Assembly: GCA_963762565.1 (NCBI GenBank)
Contig: CAVXLD010000009.1
Span: 96,001-160,000 of the forward strand
Direction: 5' to 3'
DNA: 64,000 nt
Origin: an uncultured Verrucomicrobiae bacterium
GTDB taxonomy: Bacteria > Verrucomicrobiota > Verrucomicrobiia > Chthoniobacterales > JAFAMB01
In this document: one piece after another, positions 19,958-38,422 of the stretch
How the letters are laid out: each line of letters starts with the position of its first letter
How positions within the stretch are numbered: position 1 is the first letter of the stretch
Program-made: the position numbers and the translations under genes
Notes under the pieces: generated by a model
Database searches by the model: none
What the model was told of the DNA's origin: nothing
What the model saw: the letters and a program-made list of their open reading frames with translations, nothing else

Positions 19958-22137
19958 GCGACGCCATCCTGCCGTCCGACGGGGCGCTCCCCGCTCGCGT
20001 GATGACGCCGACGCTGCTGCAGATGGAGGCCGTGGAATGCGGGGCGGCGGCGTTGGGCATCATCATGCGGTATTACGATCTGTGGCGCCCGCTGGAGCAG
20101 CTCCGAATGGAATGCGGTGTGACCCGCGACGGCAGCAAAGCGAGTAATTTGTTGAAGGCGGCGCGACGTTTCGGGATGGAGGCGAACGGAATCCGTTGCG
20201 AGCTGAACGCCCTGCTAAAAACCGAACCACCGGTGATTCTCTATTGGAATTTCAATCACTTCCTGGTGTACGAGGGCGTTAGCCAAGGAAAAGTTCATTT
20301 GAACGACCCGGCTACCGGTCCTCGTCGAATTAGCATCGAAGAGCTAGAGGCCTCTTTCACCGGGGTAGTGCTGAAGATCAGCCGCGGTCCGGCCTTCGTA
20401 CCGGGCGGGGAAAAACCTAGCCTGTTAACTGCCTTGCGCCGGCGCATTTCGGGGTTCGAAATCGGTTTGAGTTTTGCGTTTTTAACCGGCTTGCTACTGA
20501 TCATTCCGAATATCGTGAACCCATCATTCACCCGGGTGTTCATCGACCAGTACCTGATCGGAGACAAGACGAGCATTCTCCGCCCATTGGTCGCCTGCAT
20601 GGCGGTCTCAATTGGCTTCATGATTTTGCTGCTTTGGTTGCAGCGCCATTTTCTATTGCGGTTGGAGACTAAGCTCGCCCTCACAACTTCCGCTAAGTTC
20701 TTTACCCATGTGGTCAAGCTGCCCATGGAATTCTATTCGCAGCGCTATGCGGGAGAAATCGGATCACGGGTGCTCATCAACGATAAGGTTGCCAAGGTTC
20801 TCTCCGATAAGCTGGTCACGACCGGGCTCGACCTGATGGCCTTGTTGTTCTTTGCCCTCGTCATGATCCAATATGATTTTTGGCTGACGTTGATCTGCGT
20901 CACCTTTGCCTTCCTCAATTTGATTGCGATCAAGGCCGTTCAACGGCCCCGGACCGATGCAAGCTTCCGGCTGCAGCAAGAACGCGGAAAGATGACCGGG
21001 ACTTCGATGAATGGCGTGCAAATGATTGAGACGCTGAAAGCGACCGGCGGTGAAGACGAGTTTTTTGGGCGGTGGTCAGGTTATCAGGCAAAGACTATCC
21101 GAGCGGAACAGGACATGGATTTATACGGTCAAACCTTGTCTGCCGTGCCTCCGCTGACCAAAGGGTTAATCACGGCCACGATCCTCGGGTTTGGTGGCTG
21201 GAGAGTCATGGATGGTCATTTAACCGTGGGTTTGTTAGTCGCCTTCCAATCATTGATGGATGGGTTCACTAAACCGATTACCTCCTTCGTGACATTCGGT
21301 AATGCGCTCCAGGAGACCGGCTCCGACTTGAACCGGCTCGACGACGTCTTGCGTTATGAAACCGATCCTATTTACGCCAGCGATCGCACGGTCAGCCCTG
21401 AGTTCAAGGCCACCATCAAATTGACCGGACTGCTCGAGGTCCGCAATCTGACCTTTGGGTTTAACCCATTAGGCGCCCCGTTAATTGAGAACCTCAGCTT
21501 CAGGGTCCGGCCGGGTGAGCGGGTCGCTTTGGTGGGCGGTAGCGGCAGCGGTAAATCGACCGTTTCCAAACTGGTAGCCGGCCTTTTCAAACCATGGAGC
21601 GGCGAGATCCTGTTCGACGGGGTTCCGCGAACGCAGATCCCTCGGCGTTTGCTGCACAATTCGATCGGTATGGTTGATCAGGATATCTTCATGTTCGAAG
21701 GCACGATTCGCGACAATCTGACCATGTGGAATCCGACAGTCCTCGACTCTCATATCACTCTAGCGTGTAAGGATTCTGCCATAGCGGAGGACGTAGCCAG
21801 CAGGCAAGGAGGTCTTTCCAGCACCGTTGCAGAAGGCGGGGTCAACTTTTCTGGTGGCCAGCGCCAAAGGCTCGAAATCGCTCGAGCCCTGGTGAATTCG
21901 CCAAGTTTTTTGATTCTGGACGAGGCCACTAGCGCGCTAGATCCAACCACTGAGGAAGTGATTGATCGCAACCTGCGTCGACGCGGCTGTTCCTGTTTAA
22001 TCGTAGCACACCGCCTAAGTACGATCCGTGACTGCGATGAGATCATCGTCCTCGAATATGGAAGAGTGGTAGAACGAGGGACGCACGAATCGATGAAAAA
22101 CGCAGGTGGCCCATATTCGAGGTTAATCAGTCATTAG
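19954..22137 (+). CDS. NHLP-type peptidase-containing ABC transporter (C39 + TMD + NBD; LanT-like)
   Basis: TPTLLQMEAVECGAA (catalytic Cys), WNFNHF, NDPA; Walker A GGSGSGKS; FSGGQRQR; ATGA overlap with hlyD. Confidence 0.95.
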   Translation: MSDAILPSDGALPARVMTPTLLQMEAVECGAAALGIIMRYYDLWRPLEQLRMECGVTRDGSKASNLLKAARRFGMEANGIRCELNALLKTEPPVILYWNFNHFLVYEGVSQGKVHLNDPATGPRRISIEELEASFTGVVLKISRGPAFVPGGEKPSLLTALRRRISGFEIGLSFAFLTGLLLIIPNIVNPSFTRVFIDQYLIGDKTSILRPLVACMAVSIGFMILLLWLQRHFLLRLETKLALTTSAKFFTHVVKLPMEFYSQRYAGEIGSRVLINDKVAKVLSDKLVTTGLDLMALLFFALVMIQYDFWLTLICVTFAFLNLIAIKAVQRPRTDASFRLQQERGKMTGTSMNGVQMIETLKATGGEDEFFGRWSGYQAKTIRAEQDMDLYGQTLSAVPPLTKGLITATILGFGGWRVMDGHLTVGLLVAFQSLMDGFTKPITSFVTFGNALQETGSDLNRLDDVLRYETDPIYASDRTVSPEFKATIKLTGLLEVRNLTFGFNPLGAPLIENLSFRVRPGERVALVGGSGSGKSTVSKLVAGLFKPWSGEILFDGVPRTQIPRRLLHNSIGMVDQDIFMFEGTIRDNLTMWNPTVLDSHITLACKDSAIAEDVASRQGGLSSTVAEGGVNFSGGQRQRLEIARALVNSPSFLILDEATSALDPTTEEVIDRNLRRRGCSCLIVAHRLSTIRDCDEIIVLEYGRVVERGTHESMKNAGGPYSRLISH

Positions 22138-22343: not shown

Positions 22344-25292
22344 ATGGCAGTCGTTGCCTCAGCTATCAGCAATGCACTCGTAGCAGCGGGACAGCTACAC
22401 CTTCTTCGTTTGAACGAAACCTTCGTGATCGAAGGGTCGGAGAACGTTTGGTTTATTGAGAGCGGCAAAGTGGACCTTTTCACGGTCCAGCTTCAGGGAA
22501 ACGATGCGACCGGACCGAGAACTCATTTCCTTTCCTTGGAAGCCGGGTCGCTGATCTTTGGGATGGATTTTGAAAGGCAGGAGCACGGATACTGCTTTCT
22601 TCTGACCGGTCAGGAAGGGACCCATCTAATCGAACTTGATCGGGAGAAAGTGAGGCGATTGGCTCGGGACCATGAATTTGCTGCGAGCATCGGCCAACTT
22701 ACCGATCAGTGGCTGGCTCATCTCTCCGCTAGCGTCACGCGAGATGTACGGCCACTTCCGAAAGCCGATGAGCTCTTGGTCGGAGGCAAGGAAATCTTGC
22801 TGCCGCGGGAGAAAATCGCGCGGGCCCGACGTGGCATCGTTTGGGTCCAGGTAATGCGAGGAGAAGCGTTGTATCTCGGAATGGAGGCCGTTTCCCGAAC
22901 GGGCGAAGGCGTGCCGGTCTTGCCTTTGTCGCCGGATACTTGGATCGAATCCTACGACGACAATCTCCTCTCCTGCTTTTCAACACCCACCGCGATCACT
23001 CAGGCCACATTTTGGATGGGCTTGGGTCTCTTCCATGAGGTGTTGTGCCAGTGTGAATTCATTAATAAGAAGCTCAGGATTGTCGATGATTTTAACCGGC
23101 TTCGCGCGCGGGAAGCATCGGGCTTGCGGTCGCGGGACACCGCCTTGCGCGAAATTGCTTCAGTATTGGAACCCCTCGCAGAAGGCCGTGACGGAGCTCT
23201 CCTCGATGCCTCGGCTAACCCGATACTGGCGGCTTGCCGGATAGTTGGTGAAGCCTGCGGAATCCCGGTTAAAGTCCCGCCTGACCTTCATCTGGTCGCC
23301 GACAAACTCGGAGCCATCGCTAAAGCATCGCGATTTCGCTACCGCGCGGTAGCGCTCCGAGGCGATTGGTGGGAGGTCGACCATGGCTCGCTTTTGGCCT
23401 ATCGCGAAGGAACTCGTGACCCGGTTGCGATCGTTAAGACCGGCCCCAAGAGCTACGAACTCGCAGACCCACGAACGCCGAACCGGATCCCAATAACTCC
23501 GGCGGTAGCAGCCACATTGGCACCCTTCGGTGTTTCATTTTATGCCCCCTTACCAGAGACCAAGTTAGGCGCTTGGGACCTGATTAAATTTGGATTGAGA
23601 GATTCTAAATCAGACCTTCGCACCATCCTTCTGATGGGGGTTTTGGTCGGATTATTAGGCATGGTAACGCCTTACTTCAGCGGTCAGATCTTCGATTCGA
23701 TTATCCCGTCCGCTGATCGCAGCCAGTTAACCCAGTTTGCGATCGGGTTATTTGCGGCAGCCCTGGCCACATTCGCTTTCGAGCTGACTCGTTCGATCGC
23801 CGTGCTCCGGCTCACCGGTAAGATGGACTACTCAGTTCAAGCCGGAGTCTGGGATCGCCTCCTGAACTTGCCGTCCACCTTCTTTCGAGAGTACACGGCC
23901 GGCGACCTCACCGACCGCGCGCTGGGCGTCGAACAGATTCGACAAGCGATCTCTCAATCCGGTACGCAGGCGATCGTCGGGGCAATCAGCGCTGTGATTA
24001 CGGGGATCTTTCTTTTCTCCTACAACCTCCAGATGGCGGCCATCGCTATCGCTCTGGTGGCGGTAGGAGTCCTGCTCCCCTGCTCTATCAATTTTCTGCA
24101 GTTACGCAATCAGCAACGCATGTTCAGAATGCGCGGGTTGATCACGGGCCTCGTTCTCCAGCTGATCAGCGGCGTCGCAAAGATCCGAGTTTCCGGAGCA
24201 GAAGACTCCGCATTCCGTGAATGGACTCGCAGATTTTCGGCTCAGAAGCGACTCGCCTTTCGGGTCGGATTCCTCGCCAACATTATCCAGGTCTTCAGCC
24301 GAGTATTTCCCGTCATTGCGACGGCGATCATTTTCTTCGCCTACGGCTGGCTACGAGACCAAGCCGCTGCGAACCATGATAAGTTCGGCATGACGACGGG
24401 CCAGTTCGTTGCCTTCAACGGCGTCTTCATGAATGTCCTCTCAAGCATGTTGGCGCTGAGCGGGGTTGTTCTCGATCTGCTGATCATCTTTCCGTTGTTT
24501 CAACGGCTACGGCCGATCATCCAAAGTGAACCTGAGATCGATGAAGCTAAAGCTCATCCTGGAGAATTGAGCGGTGAAGTGGAGGTTTATCATCTCTCAT
24601 TTCGCTACACCGAGGATGGGCCATTGATTCTGAAGGATGTCTCTCTCTTAATCCGACCAGGGGAATTCGTTGCGCTAGTAGGCGGCTCCGGATCTGGAAA
24701 ATCCACCCTGCTCCGTCTGCTCCTTGGCTTTGAGAAACCGGAGTCCGGAGCGATTCTTTACGATAGCCAGGAGCTCTCTTCTTTGGACCTGCGGGCGGTC
24801 CGGCGGCAAATCGGAGTCGTCCTGCAATCAAGCAAGCTGATGCCAACAGACATCTATCGGAACATCATCGGGTCGCATACAACTCTTACACTAAACGACG
24901 CTTGGGAGGCCGCCAGAATGGCTGGCCTCGATCGAGATATCAAAAATATGCCCATGGGCATGAACACCGTCGTATCCGAAGGTGGCGGCACGTTTTCGGG
25001 CGGTCAGCGGCAACGTCTTATGGTGGCGCGAGCGCTGGTGAATCGGCCTAGAATTGTTTTTTTTGACGAGGCAACCAGCGCGATGGATAACGAAACGCAA
25101 CGTACGGTCACTGAAAGCCTGGACGCCATGCAAGCAACTCGGATCGTTATCGCCCATCGATTGAGCACCATTATTAATGCGGACCGAATTTTCGTCCTGA
25201 AATATGGCGAGCTGGTTCAGACCGGTGCCTACACGGAATTGATGAATCAACCGGGGCCATTTGCCGATCTTGCCAAACGACAGCTGGCTTAA
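22344..25292 (+). CDS. NHLM bacteriocin-system ABC transporter, second (non-proteolytic) subunit
   Basis: N-terminal cNMP-binding-like region (WFIESGKVDLF), degenerate C39-like region (LRGDWWEVDHG), TMD, NBD with GGSGSGKST and FSGGQRQR. Confidence 0.92.
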   Translation: MAVVASAISNALVAAGQLHLLRLNETFVIEGSENVWFIESGKVDLFTVQLQGNDATGPRTHFLSLEAGSLIFGMDFERQEHGYCFLLTGQEGTHLIELDREKVRRLARDHEFAASIGQLTDQWLAHLSASVTRDVRPLPKADELLVGGKEILLPREKIARARRGIVWVQVMRGEALYLGMEAVSRTGEGVPVLPLSPDTWIESYDDNLLSCFSTPTAITQATFWMGLGLFHEVLCQCEFINKKLRIVDDFNRLRAREASGLRSRDTALREIASVLEPLAEGRDGALLDASANPILAACRIVGEACGIPVKVPPDLHLVADKLGAIAKASRFRYRAVALRGDWWEVDHGSLLAYREGTRDPVAIVKTGPKSYELADPRTPNRIPITPAVAATLAPFGVSFYAPLPETKLGAWDLIKFGLRDSKSDLRTILLMGVLVGLLGMVTPYFSGQIFDSIIPSADRSQLTQFAIGLFAAALATFAFELTRSIAVLRLTGKMDYSVQAGVWDRLLNLPSTFFREYTAGDLTDRALGVEQIRQAISQSGTQAIVGAISAVITGIFLFSYNLQMAAIAIALVAVGVLLPCSINFLQLRNQQRMFRMRGLITGLVLQLISGVAKIRVSGAEDSAFREWTRRFSAQKRLAFRVGFLANIIQVFSRVFPVIATAIIFFAYGWLRDQAAANHDKFGMTTGQFVAFNGVFMNVLSSMLALSGVVLDLLIIFPLFQRLRPIIQSEPEIDEAKAHPGELSGEVEVYHLSFRYTEDGPLILKDVSLLIRPGEFVALVGGSGSGKSTLLRLLLGFEKPESGAILYDSQELSSLDLRAVRRQIGVVLQSSKLMPTDIYRNIIGSHTTLTLNDAWEAARMAGLDRDIKNMPMGMNTVVSEGGGTFSGGQRQRLMVARALVNRPRIVFFDEATSAMDNETQRTVTESLDAMQATRIVIAHRLSTIINADRIFVLKYGELVQTGAYTELMNQPGPFADLAKRQLA

Positions 25293-25348: not shown

Positions 25349-26497
25349 ATGAAGAGCGATAGCACGGCCAATGTAGTTCCGTTTCCAAACGCTACGGTCG
25401 ATCAGAAAATTGACGCCAACATGACGGAAATCGCCCTAGACATTCGGGCGAAGGCGCTGGAGAAATGGGGAGCAAATCAAGCCGTCGAAGTCGTGGGTTT
25501 CAGCCAGAAAATTAGGGACACGCTCGATAAGGTTCAGAAGTTCGCCAAGTTCAATCAAACGATCCTGATCACCGGTGAAAGCGGCGTTGGGAAGGAACTC
25601 TTTGCTAAAGCTTGCTATCTGCTCAGCGCTCGAATCAAGGCGCCTTTTGTCATCGTCAACTGCCCGCAATACAGCGAAGGTAATGTAACCGTCAGTGAGC
25701 TTTTTGGTCATGTGAAGGGCAGCTTCACCGGCGCGATTGCCGATCATAAGGGCCTGTTCGATGCTGCCGAAGGCGGCGCCGTTTTTCTCGATGAAGTCGG
25801 AGACCTTCCTCTCAATGCACAGACCATGCTGCTGCGAGCGCTCGCTGAAAAAGAAGTAAAGCCTTTGGGGTCGAACAAAACCTATTCCGTCGATGTCAGG
25901 ATCATTGCCGCTACCAATCGCCCACTACGGGATATGGCGGCGTGCGGTCAGTTCCGGCAAGACCTCTACTTTCGTCTCCGCTATTTTCCACTTGAAATCC
26001 CGGCGCTGCGCGATCGAGAGGAGGACTGGAAGGTCTTGATCAGTCATTTTGTCGATCGGCTAAACCAGGAATATAACCTGAAGAAAGCGTTCTCCCCTAT
26101 CTCCATCAAGTTCTTGGAGCGTTACCCCTGGCCGGGCAACGTCAGGGAGCTGAAAAGCATCGTCACCATTGGGTTCTCCATGGCCGACTCGAAGTACATC
26201 GAACCAGACCACTTTGTTAGCGACCTGCGACAGGCGAATTTGCCCGGTCCCGACACCGGTAAGAGCGAGTTATTCGAACATATGGTTGAGGACGGCGGAT
26301 CGTTTTGGGATGTCGTTCATCAGCCTTTTCTCAACCGAGATCTTAATCGAGCGCAGGCACGAGAGATTATTTCGCAGGGGCTATTGACCGCTAGAGGCAG
26401 CTACCGGCGGATGAGCGTTCTCTTCAATATTAAGCCGGATCAATATCAAAAATTCATGGACTTCCTCCGCCATCATCGGTTGAAGCCGGAGGAATAG
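25349..26497 (+). CDS. Sigma54 enhancer-binding protein lacking an N-terminal sensory domain
   Basis: GESGVGKE, ELFGHVKGSFTGA, FLDEVGD, WPGNVREL; only ~45 aa precede the AAA+ domain. Confidence 0.9.
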   Translation: MKSDSTANVVPFPNATVDQKIDANMTEIALDIRAKALEKWGANQAVEVVGFSQKIRDTLDKVQKFAKFNQTILITGESGVGKELFAKACYLLSARIKAPFVIVNCPQYSEGNVTVSELFGHVKGSFTGAIADHKGLFDAAEGGAVFLDEVGDLPLNAQTMLLRALAEKEVKPLGSNKTYSVDVRIIAATNRPLRDMAACGQFRQDLYFRLRYFPLEIPALRDREEDWKVLISHFVDRLNQEYNLKKAFSPISIKFLERYPWPGNVRELKSIVTIGFSMADSKYIEPDHFVSDLRQANLPGPDTGKSELFEHMVEDGGSFWDVVHQPFLNRDLNRAQAREIISQGLLTARGSYRRMSVLFNIKPDQYQKFMDFLRHHRLKPEE

Positions 26498-26700
26498 GCG
26501 TTTGGCGTTTGGCGTTCGGCGTTCGGCGTTCGGCGGGTTCGGGCGGGTGGCCCGGGAGGGATCCGCGTCCCCGCGATCCGTGGTTATCGAAGCCGAGGAC
26601 ATGCTGTAATCGCGGAACAAGAATATACCTCTAGGTGACGGCACGTCTTTCGCGGCGCGCAGGACGCGCGCCCTCCCTAACCGCCAACCGCCAAACGCGC
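26497..26700. repeat. Composite palindromic element bounded by heptamer arrays
   Basis: (ggcgttY)x5 on the left, aaccgccaaccgccaaacgc on the right, inner IR gggagg..gcgtcc / ggacgcgcgccctccc. Confidence 0.7.
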
Positions 26701-26749
26701 AAAATGGAGCCCCCGTTCCATTTTCGAGAATCGACGTTCCATTTTCGAG
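26701..26749 (+). promoter_or_regulatory. Candidate upstream activator sequence for the sigma54 promoter
   Basis: Exact 15-bp direct repeat cgttccattttcgag at 26714 and 26735 (21-bp period) plus an inverted half aaaatgga at 26701. Confidence 0.6.
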
Positions 26750-26829
26750 CCGGTTGCACACCGGCACAAAAACAGAGCATTTGACATAAATATCTTATAA
26801 TGAAAGACTTAAACCTCTATCCCCGATTG

Positions 26830-26845
26830 TGGCACGGCTGCTGCT
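26830..26845 (+). promoter_or_regulatory. Sigma54 -24/-12 promoter of the precursor operon
   Basis: TGGCACGGCTGCTGCT matches TGGCAC-N5-(T/C)TGC(A/T); 55 nt upstream of the NHLP ATG, which has a GAGGAG RBS. Confidence 0.8.
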
Positions 26846-26900
26846 TAATGGATTTGCAGACATGCCGGTGGCTGTCGAACTCCAGTAGAGGAGATTTGTA

Positions 26901-27215
26901 ATGGACCCCAACTCAACCGTCTCGCGTAAAGATATAAGGGAAGCCCTAGTGCGGGCGGCTTTGAAAGACGAGGCGTTTCGGGAGTCTCTTTTGGCGAACC
27001 CAAAGTTCGCAGTTGAGAGAGCGTTGGGTAGAACCTTACCGGATCGCCTACAAGTCGTTCTTTTACGAGAGACAGACAACCTCATGTATATCGTGTTGCC
27101 GAAGGATTTTCCTGATGACGCAGCACATCTCACGGATGCGGAACTCGAAAACGTGGCCGGAGGCTTCCTTAGCGCAGACAACAATATGCTGTCTCCTCAG
27201 GATCCGGCGTTCTGA
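26901..27215 (+). CDS. NHLP (nitrile hydratase-like leader) RiPP precursor-like peptide; tail FLSADNNMLSPQDPAF has no Cys
   Basis: ALKDEAFRESLLANPK...LPDRLQVVLLRETDNLMYIVLP...LTDAELENVAGG is the canonical NHLP leader with a double-Gly site. Confidence 0.92.
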   Translation: MDPNSTVSRKDIREALVRAALKDEAFRESLLANPKFAVERALGRTLPDRLQVVLLRETDNLMYIVLPKDFPDDAAHLTDAELENVAGGFLSADNNMLSPQDPAF

Positions 27216-27269
27216 GAATTCCAGTCCGATTAACACCAACGCAAACCAGAAAAATAAAAAACCACTACC

Positions 27270-27392
27270 ATGAGCGAAGAAATCCAGAAACCCGAGACGG
27301 TCAGCGACGAACAACTTGAAGATGTTGCCGGCGGTACGTTCGACAATAACTCCTGCAACGCCCTGATCGAGGCCACCGTTATCGTTGGGTAA
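27270..27392 (+). CDS. Lanthipeptide precursor copy 1: MSEEIQKPETVSDEQLEDVAGG-TFDNNSCNALIEATVIVG
   Basis: Translated by hand; double-Gly leader with V-12/L-7/V-4; core has Thr, Ser and Cys; lies upstream of lanM. Confidence 0.9.
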   Translation: MSEEIQKPETVSDEQLEDVAGGTFDNNSCNALIEATVIVG

Positions 27393-27471
27393 GACATTCG
27401 TCTTCCTTCCGATACCGGTTCAGATCAACTGCACACCCAACCCAACCCAAACCCACCAACTAGACCACCAT

Positions 27472-27594
27472 ATGAGCGAAGAGATCCAGAAGCCTGAGAC
27501 TGTTAGCGACGAGCAACTCGAAGATGTTGCCGGCGGCACGTTCGACAATAACTCCTGCAACGCCCTGATCGAAGCCACCGTCATCGTTGGGTAA
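27472..27594 (+). CDS. Lanthipeptide precursor copy 2 (identical protein)
   Basis: ATG 27472 to TAA 27594; only synonymous differences from copy 1. Confidence 0.9.
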   Translation: MSEEIQKPETVSDEQLEDVAGGTFDNNSCNALIEATVIVG

Positions 27595-27674
27595 GACATT
27601 CGTCTTCCTTCCGATACCGGTTCAGATCAACTGCACACCCAACCCAACCCAAAAACCACCAACTAGACCACCAT

Positions 27675-27797
27675 ATGAGCGAAGAGATCCAGAAGCCTGA
27701 GACTGTTAGCGACGAGCAACTCGAAGATGTTGCCGGCGGTACGTTCGACAATAACTCCTGCAACGCCCTGATCGAAGCCACCGTCATCGTTGGGTAA
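27675..27797 (+). CDS. Lanthipeptide precursor copy 3 (identical protein)
   Basis: ATG 27675 to TAA 27797; near-identical DNA to copy 2. Confidence 0.9.
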   Translation: MSEEIQKPETVSDEQLEDVAGGTFDNNSCNALIEATVIVG

Positions 27798-27874
27798 GAC
27801 ATTCGTCTTCCTTCCGATACCGGTTTAGATCAGCTGCACTGCCAACCCAACCAACCCACCAACCAAATCATAAT

Positions 27875-27997
27875 ATGAGCGAAGAGATCCAGAAGCCTGA
27901 AAACGTTAGCGATGAGCAACTCGAAGATGTTGCTGGCGGCACGTTCGATAACAACTCGTGCAACGCCCTGATTGAGGCCACTGTCATCGTTGGATAA
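27875..27997 (+). CDS. Lanthipeptide precursor copy 4 (T10N in the leader, identical core)
   Basis: ATG 27875 to TAA 27997; 7 synonymous and 0 non-synonymous core differences from copy 1. Confidence 0.9.
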   Translation: MSEEIQKPENVSDEQLEDVAGGTFDNNSCNALIEATVIVG

Positions 27998-28021
27998 CAC
28001 GATAGGCCAGAATTAAGTAAT

Positions 28022-28058
28022 GCCGCCGCCGGATTTCTTCGGCGGCGGCTTTATATTT
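28022..28058 (+). terminator. Rho-independent terminator-like hairpin between the precursors and lanM
   Basis: gccgccgccg-gatttctt-cggcggcggc followed by tttatattt. Confidence 0.75.
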
Positions 28059-28064
28059 GCTGCT

Positions 28065-31000
28065 ATGACGAGGGGATCGATCGCCTCGATATTGGCGCGC
28101 AGCGCTCCATTGCAAGAACGTCTGGCTGCTACCGATCCTCAGCAGAATCCCGGAGAGACACCCGCCCTTTTGGAGTGTTGGCGAGGCGCCTTGGATACCG
28201 CAACTCACCGGCTGTTCGATGAGCGGCTTGCGTCGCTCGGCCTTTCCTTGGAACAGGCTCGACTTCAGCTTGGGATGCTTGGGCGCGAACCAAATCGAGA
28301 AAGTAAATGCTTTGATGCATTCTTGAAGGCTTTCTCCTACCCGCCTTACCCCGGCTTTGTTGCTCTCAAACTCCCGTTTGTACCCCTCTGGGCGCCCGCA
28401 GCGTCCTTCGCGCATGACCTGGTCTTCCGAGGCGCAGAGGATAGCCGGCTCATTTCTGAGGATGCTTCTCGAAATTTGTCGCAATCGTTACTGGAGGAGC
28501 TCTGTCGCGTCGCCGCCGAGCCCGTTTATCTCTTGTTTCAAGAAGAGCGTGCCAAGGGGCAGTCGTTTGAGGAATTTGTCAGGCTATCCTTGAAATCGGA
28601 CGGAGAACGGATCTTTGGTCGCTTCCCGGCCCTTGCTCGTTGCCTCCTTGTTGTATTCAGGAACTGGATTAGTGGCACTCAGCTCTTTATGAGGCGGCTT
28701 GCGGCCGATTGGGCAGAGTTCCATGCGTTCCTTCCTGAACTGAAAAGCGATGATCCGATCCAGTCGATTTCGACAGGTTTTTCGGACCGGCACGACGACG
28801 GTCTTCAAGTCTTGCTTGTCGAGTTTTCGGACGGCTCCCGGGTGCTTTATAAACCCAAGGACATGTCGTTGGAGGCGCGGCTGCCCCAAATCAACGAATG
28901 GCTAGACGCGGAAGGTTTCCCGTTCAAACTGAGATTTCCGGTTTCGCTGCAAAAGGAAGGCTACGGATGGTCCGCATTCATCCGGCCGGAGCCCTGTCAC
29001 TCAATCGAAGAGGTAAAAACGTTTTTCGAACACGCCGGGGCTCTCCTCTGCCTCGCCCACACATTGAACGGCAAGGACCTTCTTCTAGAAAACATCGTCG
29101 CCTGTGGCAGCAATCCGGTTCCGATCGATCTCGAAACTTTCTTTCAGCCGCAAGCCCAAAGAGCGGATCGGATCGGTTCGCCTCCCGATCGAGATCCGCC
29201 AGAATGCCTGCGCCGCAGTTCCGTTCTCGAAACCGGAATGCTCCCGTATTGGCACATCGCCGGACTGGATATTCCCTGCGATCTCAGCGGCTTAAGCGGT
29301 TCCAAGGAAAATCTGTCCCAGATCAGGCAGCCCTACTGGGACGCCGTGAACACGGATCAGATGAAGCGTTCCGATCGCGGGTATAAGTCACCGGAGAAAG
29401 CTAACCGGCCCGTTTACCATGGTGCATTTCAACATCCGCGAGACTATGAGGGCGCGCTGGTCGATGGCTTCTGCCAGCTTTATCGGTTTCTGTGCGTCCG
29501 AAAGGAATCATTTATCAATTTCCTGCAAACGTTTTCGAACGCTCGAACGCGACTGATCTTCCGATCAACCCAAATGTACGGGTTGCTAGCGAAGCAATCG
29601 TTAAGAGCCGAAAACCTGACGGATGGAATTCTGCGGAGCTTGGTATTTGAAACCCTCTATCGGCCGGCGCTTAAGGGTAATTATCTATCCAACTTTCTCA
29701 AGGCGATCCTGGATCGGGAGGTACGCTGTTTGGAAAACCTCGATATCCCGAGGTTCTATATTCGCCTCGATTCGGACGCGCTGACGATCGATCACGGGCT
29801 TGAGATCCCGCATTTCCTTGTGGAATCACCCTTGGAAACAGTCAGGCAGCGAGTACTGGCGATGTCCTCAGAAATCGAAGAATATCATGTGGAAAATCTC
29901 CAGGAATCGCTCAGAAGGCAGCCCAGAATGGTTGGCCCGAGTCAGACCCGTGGCGAGATCCTCGACCTCGCTGGCAACCTGGTTGCCGAGATTCTGCGTC
30001 GGAGCAGAAATGACCCTGCAAAAAATCTGTGGCCACTGCCAACCTTCGTGAAGGAGCCTCTTCCCGAGCATGAACGTGACGGGCTCTATTTGGGAGATAT
30101 CGGAGTCGCGATATTTCTGGCGGCTTGGGATTGCGCGGGAGGGACTTCCATTTCAAAAGAACCGCTCGATACGTTGTTCTTGCGGTTGCAAGGTCGTCGA
30201 TTCCCACAAAACATCCCTCTAGGCATTTGCAACGGGCTTGGTTCATACGCCTATGGTTGTCTAGTCCTGGCAAAGCTCACCAAGCAGACCCGGTGGCTCG
30301 AGCTTTCCGACCGGTTTGGGGAAGAGATTTCCGTCGGACGTCTGACATCAGAAGCGGACCCCGATATCGTCTACGGTTTGGCGGGAGCAATTGTTTGCCT
30401 GGTTCGGCTACACCAAGCGACGAAAGACCAGAGTTTCCTGGAACGGGCACAGCAAGGTTTGGACATCCTTAGCTCCAGATTTATACACGGAACAGGGTGG
30501 GTCCGACCGAACGGAGAAGCTTTGGTCGGTTTCGCCCATGGCTCTGCAGGGATCGCTTTTGCTGCCCTGACGTTGGCCGAGGCGTCAAAAGAGGAGCGGT
30601 GTTTAGCACTGGCAAGAGATGCTTTTGCACTAGATCGTGGATTTTACTCGGAATCGGAAAAAAATTGGATGTCCACTACTCAATGCGAGGGAAATGCGTT
30701 GCGAGCTTGGTGCAGCGGTTCGCCTGGCATGACGCTAGCAAGACTAACAGCTCGGCGTCTCATGGAAGATCCGGTCTTAGGCGCCGAAATCGAACGGACG
30801 TGGCGGAGCTTTCCCGATCTGCTCGGCCTCGATCACTGGTGCTGCGGCAATTTAGGACTGGTAGAGCTTCTCTGGCATGCCGCCCGAAAACTCGACCGGG
30901 AAGACCTGCGCACGAAAGCCGACACTTTGCTTGGCAAAACTGTTCAGCGAGCGCTCAGGAGTGCGTTTTCTAGGTTCAATCCCGAGTTGGGCCACAACTT

Positions 31001-31106
31001 CTGTTTCCAACCCAGCCTGTTCCGCGGGTCCGCCGGTTTGGGTTATACGTTGCTGCGGTTTCTGCACCCCGATAAACTGCCTTGTATCCTCGCATTTGAG
31101 GTGTAG
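28065..31106 (+). CDS. lanM: Class II lanthipeptide synthetase
   Basis: Dehydratase motifs SDRH, YKPK, DLLLEN, IDLET and RLIFRSTQMY; LanC-like cyclase with GFAHGSAG, WCSG, WCCGNLG and SLFRGSAG; ATG 28065 chosen because ATG 28020 lies in the hairpin. Confidence 0.95.
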   Translation: MTRGSIASILARSAPLQERLAATDPQQNPGETPALLECWRGALDTATHRLFDERLASLGLSLEQARLQLGMLGREPNRESKCFDAFLKAFSYPPYPGFVALKLPFVPLWAPAASFAHDLVFRGAEDSRLISEDASRNLSQSLLEELCRVAAEPVYLLFQEERAKGQSFEEFVRLSLKSDGERIFGRFPALARCLLVVFRNWISGTQLFMRRLAADWAEFHAFLPELKSDDPIQSISTGFSDRHDDGLQVLLVEFSDGSRVLYKPKDMSLEARLPQINEWLDAEGFPFKLRFPVSLQKEGYGWSAFIRPEPCHSIEEVKTFFEHAGALLCLAHTLNGKDLLLENIVACGSNPVPIDLETFFQPQAQRADRIGSPPDRDPPECLRRSSVLETGMLPYWHIAGLDIPCDLSGLSGSKENLSQIRQPYWDAVNTDQMKRSDRGYKSPEKANRPVYHGAFQHPRDYEGALVDGFCQLYRFLCVRKESFINFLQTFSNARTRLIFRSTQMYGLLAKQSLRAENLTDGILRSLVFETLYRPALKGNYLSNFLKAILDREVRCLENLDIPRFYIRLDSDALTIDHGLEIPHFLVESPLETVRQRVLAMSSEIEEYHVENLQESLRRQPRMVGPSQTRGEILDLAGNLVAEILRRSRNDPAKNLWPLPTFVKEPLPEHERDGLYLGDIGVAIFLAAWDCAGGTSISKEPLDTLFLRLQGRRFPQNIPLGICNGLGSYAYGCLVLAKLTKQTRWLELSDRFGEEISVGRLTSEADPDIVYGLAGAIVCLVRLHQATKDQSFLERAQQGLDILSSRFIHGTGWVRPNGEALVGFAHGSAGIAFAALTLAEASKEERCLALARDAFALDRGFYSESEKNWMSTTQCEGNALRAWCSGSPGMTLARLTARRLMEDPVLGAEIERTWRSFPDLLGLDHWCCGNLGLVELLWHAARKLDREDLRTKADTLLGKTVQRALRSAFSRFNPELGHNFCFQPSLFRGSAGLGYTLLRFLHPDKLPCILAFEV

Positions 31107-31220
31107 GAATCAATCGTTTTTCGGGCTGCTGCTCGCGCTCGTCGTCGTCCTCGTCCTCCGAGCAGAACCCAGTTAGTTTACGGGGCTGATCTAATCGAGC
31201 GCTGTGGCGGAGCCCACGAC

Positions 31221-31454
31221 TGGAGGGAGCCGCTTTGTAGCATTGAAGCTCCATCGGTTGGCAGACAGGCGGCTCCCGAGAACGTCTCCACGTGCCGCAG
31301 TTCTATCGCCGTCGTGTCTCTCCGCCGTACCAAACCAAATGCGATGGGAAATTGCTGCCGCTGGGCAATTCCCGGGAGCCGCTTGTCTACCCCGAAAACT
31401 TTCGGTGGCTGCCAACTTGCATAACTGCCAAGCTACAAAGCGGCTCCCCTCCAG
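31221..31454. repeat. Nested palindromic repeat, family A
   Basis: tggagggagccgctttgtagc...gctacaaagcggctcccctcca with inner ggcggctcccg/cgggagccgc. Confidence 0.85.
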
Positions 31455-31479
31455 GCCCTGGGCGCCAAACGAGCCCTCC

Positions 31480-32352
31480 ATGGAACTTATCTACACCCTA
31501 CACCCCACACCGACGCCCGAAGAGCGGTATCGCATCGTTGATCCGCTGATCGCTTACAACGAGGCACAGGCAGGGCCAAGAAACTCGAAGGAATTCGCTT
31601 TTTTTGTGCGTTCTGAAACAGGTGAGCTCGTCGGAGGGTTATTGGGCTCGACTCACTTCAACCATTTCTTTGTCTCAGCGATTTTCATCGACCAGGAGTT
31701 TCGACGCGAAGGGATTGGGCGTGAACTGATCAGACGCGCAGCAGCTTTGGCGCTTGAGCGAGGGTGCGATATAATCTACCTGGACACCTTCGATTTCCAG
31801 GCACCCGGTTTCTACGAGAAACTCGGGTTCAAAGTTTTCGGGGCGCTGAACGACTATCCGACGGGCCACCGACGTCTCTATTTCGTGAAACGACTTGGTG
31901 CAGGCGGCGAGGCCCAAGGACGCACTACAAAACTGAACTTCACCCTTCAACCCCAGCCAACGCCGGACGAAAAAAAGCGCATCATTGATCCCTTGGTCGC
32001 TTACAACGAAGCGCAAGTAGGGCCTGAGGACTGGAGGGAATTCGCGTTGTCTGTACGCTCAGAGACCGGCGAGCCCGTTGCTGGGCTGTTAGGCTTTACA
32101 CACTGGAACCATTTCTTTGTGGCAGCCCTGTACGTCGAGCAACTATTCCGGAAAGAAGGGATCGGGTGTGAATTGATGAAACGCTCAGAAGCCTTGGCGC
32201 TTGAGCAAGGCTGCGATGTAGTCTATCTGGACACCTTCGATTATCAGGCGCCCGAGTTCTATGAAAAACTCGGGTTTAAAGTTTTCGGCAGATTGGAAGA
32301 CTATCCGCCCGGCCACCGACGTTTTTATCTAGTGAAACGGCTTGGGAGGTAG
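31480..32352 (+). CDS. Tandem-duplicated GNAT-family N-acetyltransferase
   Basis: Two highly similar ~140-aa repeats, each with FRxEGIG and YLDTFD(F/Y)QAPxFYEKLGFKVFG; ATG 31480 lies just downstream of the repeat element. Confidence 0.9.
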   Translation: MELIYTLHPTPTPEERYRIVDPLIAYNEAQAGPRNSKEFAFFVRSETGELVGGLLGSTHFNHFFVSAIFIDQEFRREGIGRELIRRAAALALERGCDIIYLDTFDFQAPGFYEKLGFKVFGALNDYPTGHRRLYFVKRLGAGGEAQGRTTKLNFTLQPQPTPDEKKRIIDPLVAYNEAQVGPEDWREFALSVRSETGEPVAGLLGFTHWNHFFVAALYVEQLFRKEGIGCELMKRSEALALEQGCDVVYLDTFDYQAPEFYEKLGFKVFGRLEDYPPGHRRFYLVKRLGR

Positions 32353-32478: not shown

Positions 32479-32847
32479 CTACTGCCTCGCGGAAACGACC
32501 TTGTTACCGTGTCCCATGGTTTCGACTTTTGGCTCCGCTCCATTCAGTCCCCGACGATAGGTCAACAAGTTATTGTGGCCCGAGGCAACAATCTCGCCGA
32601 CCGCATCCAGCACGACTTTATTATCGTGCCCGAGAATCTGGACCTTCGAACATTCTCCAGTGATGGTGATTTCGTCATCGTTACCAACGATCACGAAATC
32701 TTTGCCGCCGCCTTTATATTTTAGCTTCTGCTGAGTTCCAACGATCTCCTCTACGTTGCCGGATCTACCGGTTGCCAGGTTTTGCCCCAGAACCAAAGGA
32801 GCCGAACAGGCAATCATTGCCAAGACAAACCAGGAAAGGGTTTTCAT
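32479..32847 (-). CDS. Secreted DUF3060-like beta-repeat protein
   Basis: Signal peptide; IVGNDDEITITGECSKVQILGHDNKV...GHNNLLTY pattern. Confidence 0.75.
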   Translation of the reverse strand: MKTLSWFVLAMIACSAPLVLGQNLATGRSGNVEEIVGTQQKLKYKGGGKDFVIVGNDDEITITGECSKVQILGHDNKVVLDAVGEIVASGHNNLLTYRRGLNGAEPKVETMGHGNKVVSARQ

Positions 32848-34062: not shown

Positions 34063-34335
34063 ATGTTTTTCAACCGCTTTGGCAGATATCGAAGTGTTGA
34101 TCTGTGATGATGGTCTAAAGGTCCCATCGAGTCGCCGTTATCGGGCGTCCGATCGTTTGTTTGTGGGTTTAGCGGGTAATCCTCGCAAAACGCCGCCAGC
34201 TCCCAAAAAAAGAATATCGAGCGAGAGTAGGGGTAGCGTGCGGCGAGTAAGACGCGTCGTTTTGATATCCTGATCCTGGAGTTTCCACGCAATCCCTTGA
34301 CCTGGGGTTTGCTCCGGAGGTTGCCCGTCACTCAT
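34059..34335 (-). CDS. Small ORF upstream of the oxygenase, possibly frameshifted at a T7 run
   Basis: The ATG 34335 frame stops at 34138; a second frame runs to TGA 34059, overlapping the cupin ATG (ATGA). Confidence 0.4.
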
Positions 34336-34509
34336 ATGGTTCTTTGGGGAGAATTTTTTTAACAAGGGCGTCGCGCAGCGGTCAAGATTAAAAGGCTTCT
34401 CCTTGACGCCCCTGATCGACCGCGCCAAAAACCAGGAAGCGGGCGGCCGTAGCGGCCGCCCCGCTCTCTTGCTATTTGCTAATTCCTATTCGCGAAGCGT
34501 TGTTCCGGA

Positions 34510-37930: not shown

Positions 37931-38151
37931 AGAATGATCCTGAACCGCAATACACGGTCTAACTGCTCCAAGTTTTAGCTAACTACATGTGGTGAAAATC
38001 ATTTTCGCGATTTCGCTGAATGATTCCCTGTCGAGTTTTATGAAAGCCGGCCGCGAGGAGCCGAATTTCATTACGGGTTCTATACAATGAATGGCAAACA
38101 ACAGAAAAGAACAATTGGTCGGGTTTTTTGTGTGATGGGGTTGGGGGACAG

Positions 38152-38401: not shown

Positions 38402-38422
38402 GCGCTTGCGCACCCGTTCTCC

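What the first reader, a model, noticed from the sequence alone, without database searches (positions are those of the whole stretch)
26901..27392. Possible split-leader design: a full NHLP leader with a Cys-free tail next to precursors that keep only the last leader helix
Seen: the 104-aa NHLP has an 88-aa leader ending LTDAELENVAGG and a 16-aa tail, FLSADNNMLSPQDPAF, that has no Cys and so cannot form lanthionine. The short precursors have only a 22-aa leader ending VSDEQLEDVAGG, with the same hydrophobic -12/-7/-4 pattern known to be read by C39 peptidases. Both cores contain DNN. Inference: the NHLP protein may act in trans as a scaffold or activator that supplies the folded leader for LanM or the transporter. 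Alternatively it yields a second, linear (possibly dehydrated) partner or signal peptide, with DNN as a shared tailoring site.
Basis: inference. Interest (0 to 1): 0.82.

Follow-up and report, generated by a model that had tools for sequence, protein, structure and literature searches.

The report
Cys-free NHLP beside short-leader lanthipeptides
A long-leader peptide gene with no cysteine is always kept in front of short-leader lanthipeptide genes in one group of soil bacteria, and it most likely makes a separate exported linear peptide and does not help the ring-forming enzyme.

Summary
Window 26901-27215 encodes a 104-aa NHLP-family precursor: an 88-aa leader, a double-glycine site and a 16-aa Cys-free tail. 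Four tandem 40-aa precursors follow (22-aa leader, one-Cys core), then a LanM.

- **Operon:** a sigma-54 promoter sits about 70 nt upstream of the NHLP gene. A terminator-like hairpin separates the precursors from LanM.
- **Conservation:** all 8 related Chthoniobacterales/Verrucomicrobiota loci with enough flank have one Cys-free NHLP, 1-4 short-leader precursors and a LanM.
- **Selection:** the NHLP leader is under strong purifying selection (dN/dS 0.03-0.10). The tail is also constrained in the closest pairs.
- **DNN:** this motif is not conserved in NHLP tails.
- **LanM loop:** all 16 LanMs of this clade have a 14-residue segment at the position that I infer matches the published bundle-docking loop of long-leader LanMs. 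It is 20-33 residues in the 8 LanMs that sit beside full-length NHLP precursors with Cys cores.

The "leader supplied in trans to LanM" reading is therefore disfavoured. It remains unexplained why an 88-aa folded leader is kept so strictly. A trans role at the exporter or regulator is not excluded.

The parts
16657..18690 (+). TolC-like outer-membrane efflux protein (677 aa)
   Evidence: Pfam OEP 2.1e-15; TolC family 7.8e-9, below cutoff. Present upstream in L001, L004, L005 and L006 at only 38-43% identity.
18641..19957 (+). NHLP bacteriocin system HlyD-type secretion protein
   Evidence: TIGR03794, 323.6 bits against cutoff 156.2.
19954..22137 (+). NHLM ABC1: C39 peptidase / permease / ATPase exporter subunit
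   Evidence: TIGR03796, 1033.8 bits against cutoff 853.3. Peptidase_C39 at residues 19-144, E 5.9e-32. Cys and His are visible in the N-terminal domain; calling them the catalytic motifs rests on recall.
22344..25292 (+). NHLM ABC2: permease/ATPase subunit without peptidase, with a ~290-aa N-terminal extension
   Evidence: TIGR03797, 900.4 bits against cutoff 709.4, matching residues 292-981. Model of residues 1-420 has pLDDT 82.8. Best PDB folds are tandem cyclic-nucleotide-binding domains of PKA regulatory subunits and CRP, E down to 4.9e-8.
25349..26497 (+). Sigma-54 enhancer-binding protein with no receiver or sensor domain (382 aa)
   Evidence: Sigma54_activat at residues 49-215, E 1.2e-58. 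Partial matches to NifA/PspF-type models, below cutoffs. Conserved next to the NHLP in L001-L005, L007 and L009.
26716..26747 (+). Two direct 11-nt repeats (TTCCATTTTCG), 21 nt apart; candidate activator-binding site
   Evidence: At -185 and -164 from the NHLP ATG in the window and in L001; one copy in L004 and L005; none in the other 6 loci. Function is inferred.
26830..26845 (+). Sigma-54 promoter-like site (TGGCAC-N5-TTGCT type), 70 nt before the NHLP ATG
   Evidence: A strict pattern hits 70-83 nt upstream of the NHLP ATG in 8 of 10 loci. L002 and L007 show one-off matches at the same place by eye. No sigma-70-like site in 26400-28100.
26901..27215 (+). NHLP-family precursor: leader 26901-27164, Cys-free 16-aa tail 27165-27212
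27270..27392 (+). Short-leader lanthipeptide precursor, copy 1 (40 aa)
   Evidence: Weak match of the leader to NF038167 CTB family bacteriocin, 23.9 bits, below cutoff 32. Homologues.
27472..27594 (+). Short-leader precursor, copy 2
27675..27797 (+). Short-leader precursor, copy 3
27875..27997 (+). Short-leader precursor, copy 4
28022..28059 (+). Terminator-like hairpin (12 pairs, 10 G-C) plus a T-rich run, between the last precursor and LanM
   Evidence: one such site found, against a mean of 2.2 in shuffles of the region, so the count alone is not significant. Its position and strength are what matter.
28065..31106 (+). Class II lanthipeptide synthetase LanM; the ORF opens at 28020 but the likely start is Met16 at 28065
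   Evidence: TIGR03897, 591.5 bits against cutoff 304. The closest representative, P0073, aligns from residue 16. The Cys-Cys-Gly motif is invariant in the 48-sequence alignment.
31204..32352 (+). GNAT acetyltransferase with two GNAT domains
   Evidence: A single-domain homologue follows LanM in L001, L003, L004 and L005 at 71-78% identity.
32479..32847 (-). DUF3060 protein
   Evidence: Conserved after the GNAT in L001 and L003-L005.

Best explanation
The 104-aa ORF is a real, translated NHLP-family precursor. It is the promoter-proximal gene of a sigma-54-dependent operon: NHLP, then four short-leader lanthipeptide precursors, then a terminator-like hairpin, then LanM.

It is a fixed companion of this cluster type in Chthoniobacterales, but it is most likely not a helper of LanM. 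It is a second cargo of the adjacent NHLM exporter. The C39 domain of ABC1 would cut after the double glycine during export and release a 15-17-residue linear peptide that carries no lanthionine.

LanM works on the short precursors alone, through the C-terminal acidic/hydrophobic leader segment. This LanM clade has lost the loop that long-leader LanMs use to grip the NHLP helical bundle.

What the linear peptide does is not known. A signal or partner peptide is the leading guess.

Shown here:
- gene order, family memberships and the promoter-like and terminator-like sites;
- conservation of the trio in related loci;
- purifying selection on leader and tail;
- the short LanM segment.

Inferred:
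- cleavage and export of the NHLP tail;
- lack of modification of the tail;
- equivalence of the LanM segment with the published docking loop;
- any signalling role.
For: Family and transport link:
- NHLP scores above the TIGR03793 cutoff.
- The NHLP profile hits the solved NHLP leaders 9cjx (DprE2, E 2.3e-8) and 8tb1 (E 1.8e-6).
- HlyD, ABC1 and ABC2 all score above the NHLM equivalog cutoffs. ABC1 has a C39 domain.
- Passages of PMC2887384 say phylogenetic profiling ties NHLPs to exactly this three-gene transporter.
- Passages of PMC6363468 say a C39 domain needs only the last 13 leader residues and cuts Nif11, nitrile-hydratase-type and short leaders.

The cleavage site and tail matter:
- L77, L82 and G88 are invariant and G87 nearly invariant in 41 sequences.
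- 48 of 53 parsed homologue tails are Cys-free, 34 of 53 are exactly 16 aa, and 43 of 53 start with FL.
- Tail dN/dS is 0 in L004/L005 (0 nonsynonymous, 4 synonymous changes) and 0.05 in L006/L008 (3 against 9).

The tail is not a general LanM substrate:
- One homologue (P0014) has no Ser, Thr or Cys in its tail.
- In PMC12537861 (section 5 read) the Cys-free NHLP precursor DprE6 was not modified by its LanM.

LanM does not look built for the bundle:
- The segment F158-F171 is 14 residues in 16 of 16 clade LanMs.
- It is 20-33 residues in 8 of 8 LanMs beside full-length NHLP precursors with Cys cores, and the median is 28 in 42 non-clade LanMs.
- PMC12537861 (section 9, parts 1-2 read) describes a 34-residue loop around DprM residues 201-209 whose hydrophobic side chains dock the bundle. 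It also shows that leader truncations abolish DprM activity.

The tail does not track LanM or core type: L004 and L005 have identical NHLP tails but different short-core types and LanMs only 55% identical.

Operon signals: the sigma-54 site is conserved 70-83 nt upstream of the NHLP, and a hairpin follows the last precursor.
Against: - The leader is conserved far beyond what a C39 site needs: dN/dS is 0.03-0.10 and 30 columns are invariant across 50-95% identity. This reading does not explain that.
- The neighbouring precursors manage with 22 leader residues.
- The tail evolves much faster than the leader in more distant pairs (dN/dS 0.2-0.85, with saturated dS), and some homologues have shortened tails of 10-13 aa.
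- No receptor for a signal peptide was identified in the conserved part of the loci.
- Cleavage, export and absence of modification are not shown.
- I mapped the LanM segment onto the DprM loop by position (residues ~172-251 in NHLP-context LanMs) and by character, without the DprM sequence.
- 3 of 42 non-clade LanMs also have 14 or fewer residues there.
Confidence: 0.45

Rival explanations
1. Split leader for LanM. The NHLP protein binds LanM in trans and supplies the folded helical bundle that the 22-aa leaders lack, switching on or speeding up modification of the short precursors.
For: - Strict co-occurrence: one NHLP with 1-4 short-leader precursors and a LanM in 8 of 8 informative related loci.
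- The leader is under very strong purifying selection.
- All 48 aligned LanMs, this one included, carry the invariant Cys-Cys-Gly motif. LanMs from NHLP loci are among its nearest outgroups, with tblastn E 1e-89 to 1e-101. A descent from long-leader LanMs is therefore plausible.
- DprM requires the whole NHLP leader (PMC12537861).
- NHLP is co-transcribed at precursor-like level, upstream of the hairpin.
Against: - All 16 of 16 clade LanMs lack the long loop found in 8 of 8 NHLP-context LanMs.
- An invariant cleavage site and a constrained tail are not needed for a pure scaffold.
- An NHLP 95% identical (L004 against L005) serves LanMs only 55% identical with different core types.
- In the one published test seen, a long Nif11 leader given in trans did not rescue a leader-dependent hydroxylase (bioRxiv 10.64898/2026.10.04.756588, passages). 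That enzyme is not a LanM.
Confidence: 0.07
2. The leader domain works in trans on the exporter or the regulator, not on LanM. The NHLP bundle would engage the NHLM ABC1/ABC2 machine (for example the N-terminal cyclic-nucleotide-binding-like domains of ABC2) to prime export of short-leader cargo. Alternatively it would bind the receiver-less sigma-54 activator as a feedback sensor. In either case the tail is secondary.
For: - Leader conservation (82-83% identity to L001-L005) matches ABC1, ABC2 and the activator (79-84%), not LanM (37%).
- NHLP and the activator share the same mosaic pattern: L004 against L005 is 95-96% for both, but 83-87% for ABC1, ABC2 and HlyD and 55% for LanM.
- NHLPs are tied to this transporter family by phylogenetic profiling (PMC2887384 passages).
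- ABC2 carries a conserved extra N-terminal module of unknown ligand.
- The activator has no sensor domain of its own.
Against: - The shared mosaic pattern can be explained by the two genes lying side by side.
- L008 keeps NHLP, short precursors and LanM with no transporter or activator within 10 kb. L006 has no activator between ABC2 and the NHLP.
- The short leader is equally conserved while LanM diverges, so conservation level alone does not identify the partner.
- No binding evidence of any kind was obtained.
Confidence: 0.2
3. The NHLP is still a LanM substrate, but for dehydration only. Ser/Thr in the tail would become dehydro residues, giving a linear dehydrated partner peptide.
For: - The window tail has two Ser. 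52 of 53 parsed tails contain at least one Ser, Thr or Cys.
- The NHLP shares the C-terminal acidic/hydrophobic leader segment with the true substrates.
Against: - P0014 has no Ser, Thr or Cys in its tail.
- Ser positions are not conserved among tails.
- DprE6, a Cys-free NHLP with Ser and Thr, was not dehydrated by DprM (PMC12537861).
Confidence: 0.1
4. The NHLP is an evolutionary leftover: the ancestral long-leader precursor that lost the Cys half of its core when truncated-leader copies took over, and that no longer has a function.
For: - P0042 and P0044 carry a full NHLP leader of this subfamily on a 23-aa one-Cys core that, by eye, resembles the short cores of L009 and L001.
- Some homologues have shortened tails of 10-13 aa.
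- P0057 is a fusion of NHLP residues 1-46 to a whole short precursor, so recombination between the two gene types does occur or is produced by assembly.
Against: - Intact ORFs in 10 of 10 loci, with leader dN/dS 0.03-0.10 at synonymous saturation.
- The cleavage site is invariant.
- The tail shows 0 nonsynonymous against 4 synonymous changes in the closest pair.
- A functionless gene would not look like this.
Confidence: 0.04

Closest known systems
NHLP (nitrile hydratase-like leader peptide, TIGR03793) precursors with the NHLM three-gene exporter (Haft et al. 2010, PMC2887384; passages seen)
   Same: Same leader family (above cutoff), same double-glycine site, and the same dedicated HlyD/ABC1/ABC2 transporter next door.
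   Different: - There is one NHLP per locus, and its tail has no Cys.
- It shares the operon with precursors of a different leader length.
- In 14 distant NHLP loci that contain a LanM, 12 have at least one NHLP core with Cys. None of the 37 distant loci showed the pairing with ~22-aa leaders in a crude motif scan.
dpr proteusin cluster: DprM with DprE1-E7 (PMC12537861; sections 5 and 9 read)
   Same: - A LanM with three-Cys zinc ligands, NHLP precursors with at most one Cys, and a C39 exporter.
- One NHLP (DprE6) has a Cys-free core and is left unmodified.
- The NHLP profile here matches the DprE2 NMR structure.
   Different: - In dpr all substrates carry the full NHLP leader, and truncated leaders are not accepted.
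- Here the Cys-bearing substrates have only 22 leader residues.
- The LanM segment at the position of the DprM docking loop is 14 residues instead of about 34 (mapping inferred).
Canonical short-leader class II lanthipeptide operons (lanA copies, attenuator, lanM, lanT with C39); recalled textbook knowledge
   Same: Tandem lanA copies with about 22-aa double-glycine leaders, a hairpin before lanM, and a C39 ABC exporter.
   Different: - The LanM is of the Cys-Cys-Gly type, whose nearest relatives sit beside long-leader precursors.
- The exporter is the two-ABC NHLM type with a TolC-like partner.
- The operon is sigma-54 dependent and starts with an NHLP gene.
Induction or pheromone peptides of class II bacteriocin and competence loci (double-glycine leader, same ABC exporter as the bacteriocins); recalled, not tested
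   Same: A small unmodified peptide with a double-glycine leader, co-encoded with antimicrobial-type peptides and processed by the same C39 exporter. The mature part varies faster than the leader.
   Different: - Those peptides have short leaders and sit beside a histidine kinase and response regulator.
- Here the leader is an 88-aa folded domain.
- The adjacent regulator is a sensor-less sigma-54 activator. The only kinase/regulator pair in the window lies at 6825-10227, 16 kb away.

Membership tests
NHLP leader peptide family RiPP precursor (TIGR03793) | Profile score above the curated cutoff | tested here: met
   71.8 bits against 50.9, residues 9-88.
NHLP leader peptide family RiPP precursor (TIGR03793) | Double-glycine cleavage motif with hydrophobic residues at -4, -7 and -12 | tested here: met
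   L, L and V at -12/-7/-4. L77, L82 and G88 are invariant and G87 nearly invariant in 41 sequences.
NHLP leader peptide family RiPP precursor (TIGR03793) | Folded three-helix bundle leader like the solved NHLP leaders | tested here: inconclusive
   - The model has three helices (9-22, 24-32, 34-42), a hairpin and helix 79-85, but mean pLDDT is only 56.6.
- Top fold hits are 9cjx and 8tb1 with TM about 0.45-0.53 and E 0.013-0.05.
- The sequence profile hits the same two entries at E 2.3e-8 and 1.8e-6.
NHLP leader peptide family RiPP precursor (TIGR03793) | Linked to the NHLM HlyD/ABC1/ABC2 exporter | tested here: met
   All three genes score above the equivalog cutoffs, directly upstream.
Class II lanthipeptide precursor (LanA), asked of the NHLP ORF | Core contains Cys together with Ser/Thr so that a (methyl)lanthionine can form | tested here: not met
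   No Cys in the window tail. 48 of 53 homologue tails are Cys-free. Of the five with Cys, one is the chimera P0057 and one is a 50-residue read-through tail (P0037).
Class II lanthipeptide precursor (LanA), asked of the four short ORFs | Double-glycine leader, core with Ser/Thr and Cys, next to a LanM | tested here: met
   The core has one Cys, two Thr and one Ser. LanM starts 68 nt after the last copy. No modification was observed.
Type 2 lanthipeptide synthetase LanM (TIGR03897) | Profile above cutoff, with dehydratase and LanC-like cyclase domains and zinc ligands | tested here: met
   591.5 bits against 304. The LanC-like part matches at residues 624-1018. C883, C926 and C927 are invariant.
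Long-leader (NHLP/Nif11)-dependent LanMs of the DprM/OspM/MppM kind (PMC12537861) | [quoted passage not shown] | tested here: not met
   14 residues in 16 of 16 clade members, against 20-33 in 8 of 8 LanMs beside full-length NHLP/Cys precursors.
Long-leader (NHLP/Nif11)-dependent LanMs of the DprM/OspM/MppM kind (PMC12537861) | Cys-bearing substrates carry the full-length structured leader | tested here: not met
   In the window and in 8 of 8 related loci the Cys-bearing precursors have short leaders. The exceptions are P0042 and P0044, whose genomic context could not be seen.
Double-glycine pheromone / induction peptide | Small unmodified peptide with a double-glycine leader, exported by a C39 ABC transporter | tested here: inconclusive
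   The sequence features fit. Export and absence of modification were not shown.
Double-glycine pheromone / induction peptide | Cognate sensor kinase and response regulator in the locus | tested here: not met
   No kinase was identified among the genes compared or annotated in L001-L009. The window has a kinase and NtrC-type regulator at 6825-10227, outside the conserved block.

The most novel reading that the evidence does not exclude
The folded NHLP leader has been kept as a free-standing, stoichiometric adaptor after the real lanthipeptide substrates shed it. Substrates lost the helical bundle and LanM lost the matching docking loop. One Cys-free NHLP per operon is retained because the NHLM exporter (or the sensor-less sigma-54 activator) still needs a bundle-bearing protein to be switched on. 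This would be a split-leader design at the level of export or regulation rather than modification, with the 16-aa tail as a co-exported by-product or signal.
Probability: 0.17. Interest if true: 0.8.

Novelty: new variant of a known kind. Interest (0 to 1): 0.5.

Why it matters
Long, folded NHLP and Nif11 leaders are a current puzzle in RiPP biosynthesis. A 2025 study showed that one LanM needs the whole folded leader.

This Verrucomicrobial cluster type looks like nature's own leader-minimisation experiment. The Cys-bearing substrates keep only the last ~22 residues, and the enzyme lacks the long segment found in LanMs of long-leader clusters. Yet one full NHLP with a Cys-free tail is kept in every locus under strong selection.

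Three simple experiments would show whether the bundle has a job beyond enzyme recognition: LanM with and without NHLP, an NHLP deletion, and a search for the tail peptide in supernatant. They could also yield a naturally short-leader, broad-type LanM useful for engineering. If the NHLP is just a second cargo, the finding is a tidy but modest variant of known clusters.

Tried and rejected
- **Complex prediction.** No binding prediction of any pair exists.
- **Alignment of all post-cleavage peptides.** The resemblance between the P0042/P0044 core, the short cores and the start of the NHLP tails therefore rests on reading by eye.
- **Pfam on the short precursors.** No family found, even at E up to 10. 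The precomputed label PF28158 is not in the local Pfam copy.
- **Search for longer proteins carrying the short core.** Only the chimera P0057 and one 71-aa protein (P0223) were found.
- **LanM against PDB sequences.** The alignments (LicM2, CylM) start after the loop region, so they could not map the loop directly.
- **L044 (a Desulfotomaculum genome).** Checked as a possible source of a DprM-like enzyme; it has no LanM within the 20 kb held.
- **Rows dropped.** LanMs of L012, L015 and L036 were requested but not recovered by my ORF filter, so '8 of 8' leaves them out. L006 has broken LanM and ABC1 frames and was left out of the LanM alignment.
- **Pfam on ABC2 residues 1-419.** Nothing found. 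The fold came only from the model.
- **Idea that NHLP belongs to the transporter/regulator module and not the LanM module.** Weakened by L008, where NHLP stays with the precursors and LanM and no transporter is nearby.
- **Literature.**
  - NHLP + lanthipeptide + Verrucomicrobia: 1 paper (listing only).
  - Chthoniobacter + lanthipeptide: 3 papers hold both terms, 2 listed (listing only).
  - NHLP + leader + 'in trans': 9 papers.
  - Judged from titles and abstract starts, none describes this architecture.
Full report
**What is there**

The window (54.6% G+C) carries a + strand block with the following genes.

| Coordinates | Gene or feature | Evidence |
|---|---|---|
| 16657-18690 | TolC-like protein | |
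| 18641-19957 | NHLM HlyD | TIGR03794, 323.6 bits against cutoff 156.2 |
| 19954-22137 | NHLM ABC1 with a C39 peptidase domain | TIGR03796, 1033.8 bits against 853.3; Peptidase_C39 E 5.9e-32 |
| 22344-25292 | NHLM ABC2 | TIGR03797, 900.4 bits against 709.4 |
| 25349-26497 | Sigma-54 enhancer-binding protein, AAA+ core only, no receiver | |
| 26901-27215 | 104-aa NHLP ORF | |
| 27270-27997 | Four 40-aa ORFs in a 203-bp tandem array | |
| 28020/28065-31106 | LanM | TIGR03897, 591.5 bits against 304 |
| 31204-32352 | Two-domain GNAT | |
| 32479-32847 (minus strand) | DUF3060 gene | |

It covers only the first of the four short copies.

**Operon signals**

A TGGCAC-N5-TTGCT-type sigma-54 site lies 70 nt before the NHLP ATG. 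The same pattern lies 70-83 nt before the NHLP ATG in 8 of 10 loci by a strict pattern. L002 and L007 show one-off matches at the same place by eye. No sigma-70-like site was found in 26400-28100.

A strong hairpin with a T-rich tail at 28022-28059 follows the last short precursor and overlaps the first codons of the long LanM ORF. The nearest LanM representative aligns from residue 16, so LanM probably starts at 28065.

The NHLP is therefore the first gene of a precursor-rich transcript that is partly insulated from LanM. That is the usual lanA/lanM layout (recalled).

**Relatives of the NHLP**

A search of the large protein collection gave 58 relatives at 56-95% identity. Those that carry names are Chthoniobacterales or Verrucomicrobia. 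Of these, 53 could be parsed at the double-glycine site:

- 48 tails have no Cys.
- 34 tails are exactly 16 aa.
- 43 tails begin with FL.
- 35 tails have an acidic-x-Asn triplet in the first eight residues.
- None of the 52 genuine NHLP tails has DNN. The one DNN among the 53 is in the chimera P0057, which carries the short core.

The five tails with Cys are:

- P0022, with a single substitution.
- P0037, whose tail is a 50-residue read-through.
- P0042 and P0044, a full NHLP leader on a 23-aa one-Cys core that by eye resembles the short cores of L009 and L001.
- P0057, a fusion of NHLP residues 1-46 to a whole short precursor.

One tail (P0014) has no Ser, Thr or Cys at all.

The leader is far more conserved than the tail: 30 columns are invariant in 41 sequences, including the cleavage-site residues.

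**Selection**

| Region | Pairs | dN/dS | Note |
|---|---|---|---|
| Leader | All pairs where dS could be estimated | 0.03-0.10 for most pairs (0.12 and 0.19 in two) | dS is often saturated |
| Tail | L004/L005 | 0 | 0 nonsynonymous, 4 synonymous changes |
| Tail | L006/L008 | 0.05 | 3 nonsynonymous, 9 synonymous changes |
| Tail | More distant pairs | 0.2-0.85 | dS near saturation |

Both parts are translated and constrained, the tail more loosely. This rules out a dead relic. It also speaks against a pure scaffold whose tail is irrelevant.

**Related loci**

Nine are close (59-85% identity), all Verrucomicrobiota/Chthoniobacterales MAGs. L002 ends just after the NHLP.

The other 8 all show one NHLP, 1-4 short-leader precursors and a LanM. 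In L003 three extra short precursors, with their own sigma-54 site, precede the NHLP.

The short leaders are nearly the same everywhere, but the cores fall into several types.

The 37 distant loci are ordinary NHLP loci. In 12 of the 14 that contain a LanM, at least one NHLP core has Cys. In L012 and L015 none has. A crude motif scan found no pairing of an NHLP with ~22-aa-leader peptides in them.

The trio is therefore a lineage-specific, conserved architecture. The loci were found through the NHLP, so LanM loci without an NHLP could not be seen.

**Mosaic evolution**

Percent identity of the window's proteins to those of related loci:

| Comparison | NHLP | ABC1 | ABC2 | Activator | HlyD | LanM |
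|---|---|---|---|---|---|---|
| Window vs L001-L005 | 82-83 | 81-82 | 79-82 | 81-84 | 73-75 | 37 |
| Window vs L006/L008 | 61 | n/a | n/a | n/a | n/a | 43 |
| L004 vs L005 | 95 | 87 | 85 | 96 | 83 | 55 |

- L006 and L008 carry almost the same short core as the window, although their NHLPs are only 61% identical.
- L004 and L005 have identical NHLP tails but different core types.
- LanM and core type thus change together as a cassette. The NHLP does not follow them.
- The short leader is just as stable across LanM types, so this does not prove that the NHLP ignores LanM.
- In L008 the NHLP stays with the precursors and LanM although no transporter or activator lies within 10 kb.

**The LanM loop**

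PMC12537861 (sections 5 and 9 read) reports the following:

- DprM needs the whole NHLP leader.
- Two N-terminal truncations of the leader (Δ1-65 and Δ1-74) abolish activity.
- A Cys-free NHLP (DprE6) is left untouched.
- DprM, OspM and MppM models dock the leader's three-helix bundle with hydrophobic residues on a short helix. That helix sits inside a long loop: 34 residues in DprM (around 201-209), 16 in CylM and 7 in LicM2.

I aligned 48 LanMs and later added 10 LanMs taken from loci. The segment between the nearly invariant F158 and F171 (numbering from 28065) has these lengths:

| Group | Number | Segment length (residues) |
|---|---|---|
| LanMs of this clade | 16 of 16 | 14 |
| LanMs beside full-length NHLP precursors with Cys cores (L013, L016, L020, L021, L024, L026, L029, L030) | 8 of 8 | 20-33 |
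| All non-clade LanMs | 42 | Median 28; three have 14 or fewer |

The long versions carry a hydrophobic patch of the kind the paper describes and sit at residues ~172-251.

I take this to be the docking loop. That step is inferred, because I did not have the DprM sequence and the PDB alignments start just after this region.

If the inference is right, substrates and enzyme have lost the two halves of the bundle contact together, and the NHLP bundle has no obvious seat on this LanM.

**Structure**

- The NHLP model is of low confidence (pLDDT 56.6). It shows three helices, a hairpin, a helix over the last leader residues and a disordered tail.
- Its best fold matches are the two solved NHLP leaders. 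The sequence profile hits the same entries.
- The first 420 residues of ABC2 model well (pLDDT 82.8). They resemble tandem cyclic-nucleotide-binding domains followed by a third domain. This extension is conserved in distant NHLM systems. Its ligand is unknown.

**Reading**

The most economical account is that the NHLP is a second cargo of the NHLM exporter. It would be cut by the ABC1 C39 domain, which needs only the last 13 leader residues (PMC6363468, passages). This would give a short linear peptide, while LanM handles the short precursors by itself.

The weak point is that this does not explain why an 88-aa folded leader is preserved so strictly next to 22-aa leaders that use the same exporter. 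I therefore keep a sizeable rival open: a trans role of the bundle at the exporter or at the sensor-less activator.

The one published trans test I saw involved a Nif11 leader and a hydroxylase, and it was negative (bioRxiv 10.64898/2026.10.04.756588, passages).

**Novelty**

- NHLP precursors, NHLM exporters, LanMs acting on NHLP substrates and even Cys-free NHLPs inside LanM clusters are all known.
- What I did not find in print (searches, judged from listings) is:
  - the conserved pairing of one Cys-free NHLP with short-leader lanthipeptide precursors;
  - a LanM clade with the shortened segment.
- I rate this a new variant of a known kind, of moderate interest, and directly testable.

Noticed in passing
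window 22344-23603 (ABC2 residues 1-420): The NHLM ABC2 subunit has a ~290-aa N-terminal extension that Pfam does not recognise. Its model looks like two cyclic-nucleotide-binding-type barrels plus a long helix, followed by a third small domain. The extension is conserved at 22-31% identity in distant NHLP loci (alignment A3).
   Followed up: partly
window 28022-28059: A strong terminator-like hairpin overlaps the first 15 codons of the longest LanM ORF. The real LanM start is probably the Met at 28065.
   Followed up: partly
window 26497-26535 and 26716-26747: A 7-nt tandem repeat (5.6 copies) starts at the activator's stop codon. Two 11-nt direct repeats lie about 115 nt upstream of the sigma-54 site and recur at the same distance in L001 (one copy in L004 and L005).
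   Followed up: partly
protein P0057 (metagenome, 2168-bp contig): An 86-aa protein that joins NHLP residues 1-46 (the three helices) in frame to a complete short precursor. It is either a natural deletion or an assembly chimera. Single observation.
   Followed up: no
proteins P0042 and P0044: The same NHLP subfamily leader on a 23-aa core with one Cys that resembles the short cores of L009 and L001. This is a possible ancestral state. Their contigs could not be fetched.
   Followed up: no
window 32872-41074: A JmjC-domain protein, two M3 oligopeptidases, a PCMT-like O-methyltransferase with a C-terminal extension (36359-37558) and small ORFs lie between the DUF3060 gene and LarC/transaldolase. 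In L001 LarC and transaldolase follow the DUF3060 genes directly, and ORFs of matching size and order follow in L003 and L004, so this stretch looks like an insertion. JmjC homologues (28-30% identity) also occur in three distant NHLP loci (L015, L027, L028).
   Followed up: partly
window 6825-15743: This stretch holds a histidine kinase, an NtrC-type sigma-54 response regulator, a stand-alone LanC-like protein (10583-11845) and an adenylation/carrier/reductase protein (12219-15743). It may be a second small biosynthetic or regulatory unit. Its link to the lanthipeptide operon is unknown.
   Followed up: no
window 31204-32352 against L001, L003, L004, L005: The GNAT after LanM has two GNAT domains in the window (382 aa) but one in the relatives (142-196 aa). 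It is absent after LanM in L008. No hit to it was found in L006, L007 or L009, where L007 and L009 have little or no sequence after LanM.
   Followed up: no
L008 1-10000 and L006: L008 has the NHLP/short-precursor/LanM operon without any transporter or activator within 10 kb, and a DDE transposase lies upstream. L006 has frameshifted LanM and ABC1 and no activator between ABC2 and the NHLP.
   Followed up: partly
L007 2906-3061: A second short-leader precursor in L007 has a core with no Cys, so Cys-free cargo also exists on the short leader.
   Followed up: no
window 27393-27874 (spacers between short precursors): The spacers are repeated with the genes and are C/A-rich with no Shine-Dalgarno-like motif, whereas the NHLP has a GAGGAG a few bases before its ATG. 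Translation of the two precursor types may be set differently.
   Followed up: no
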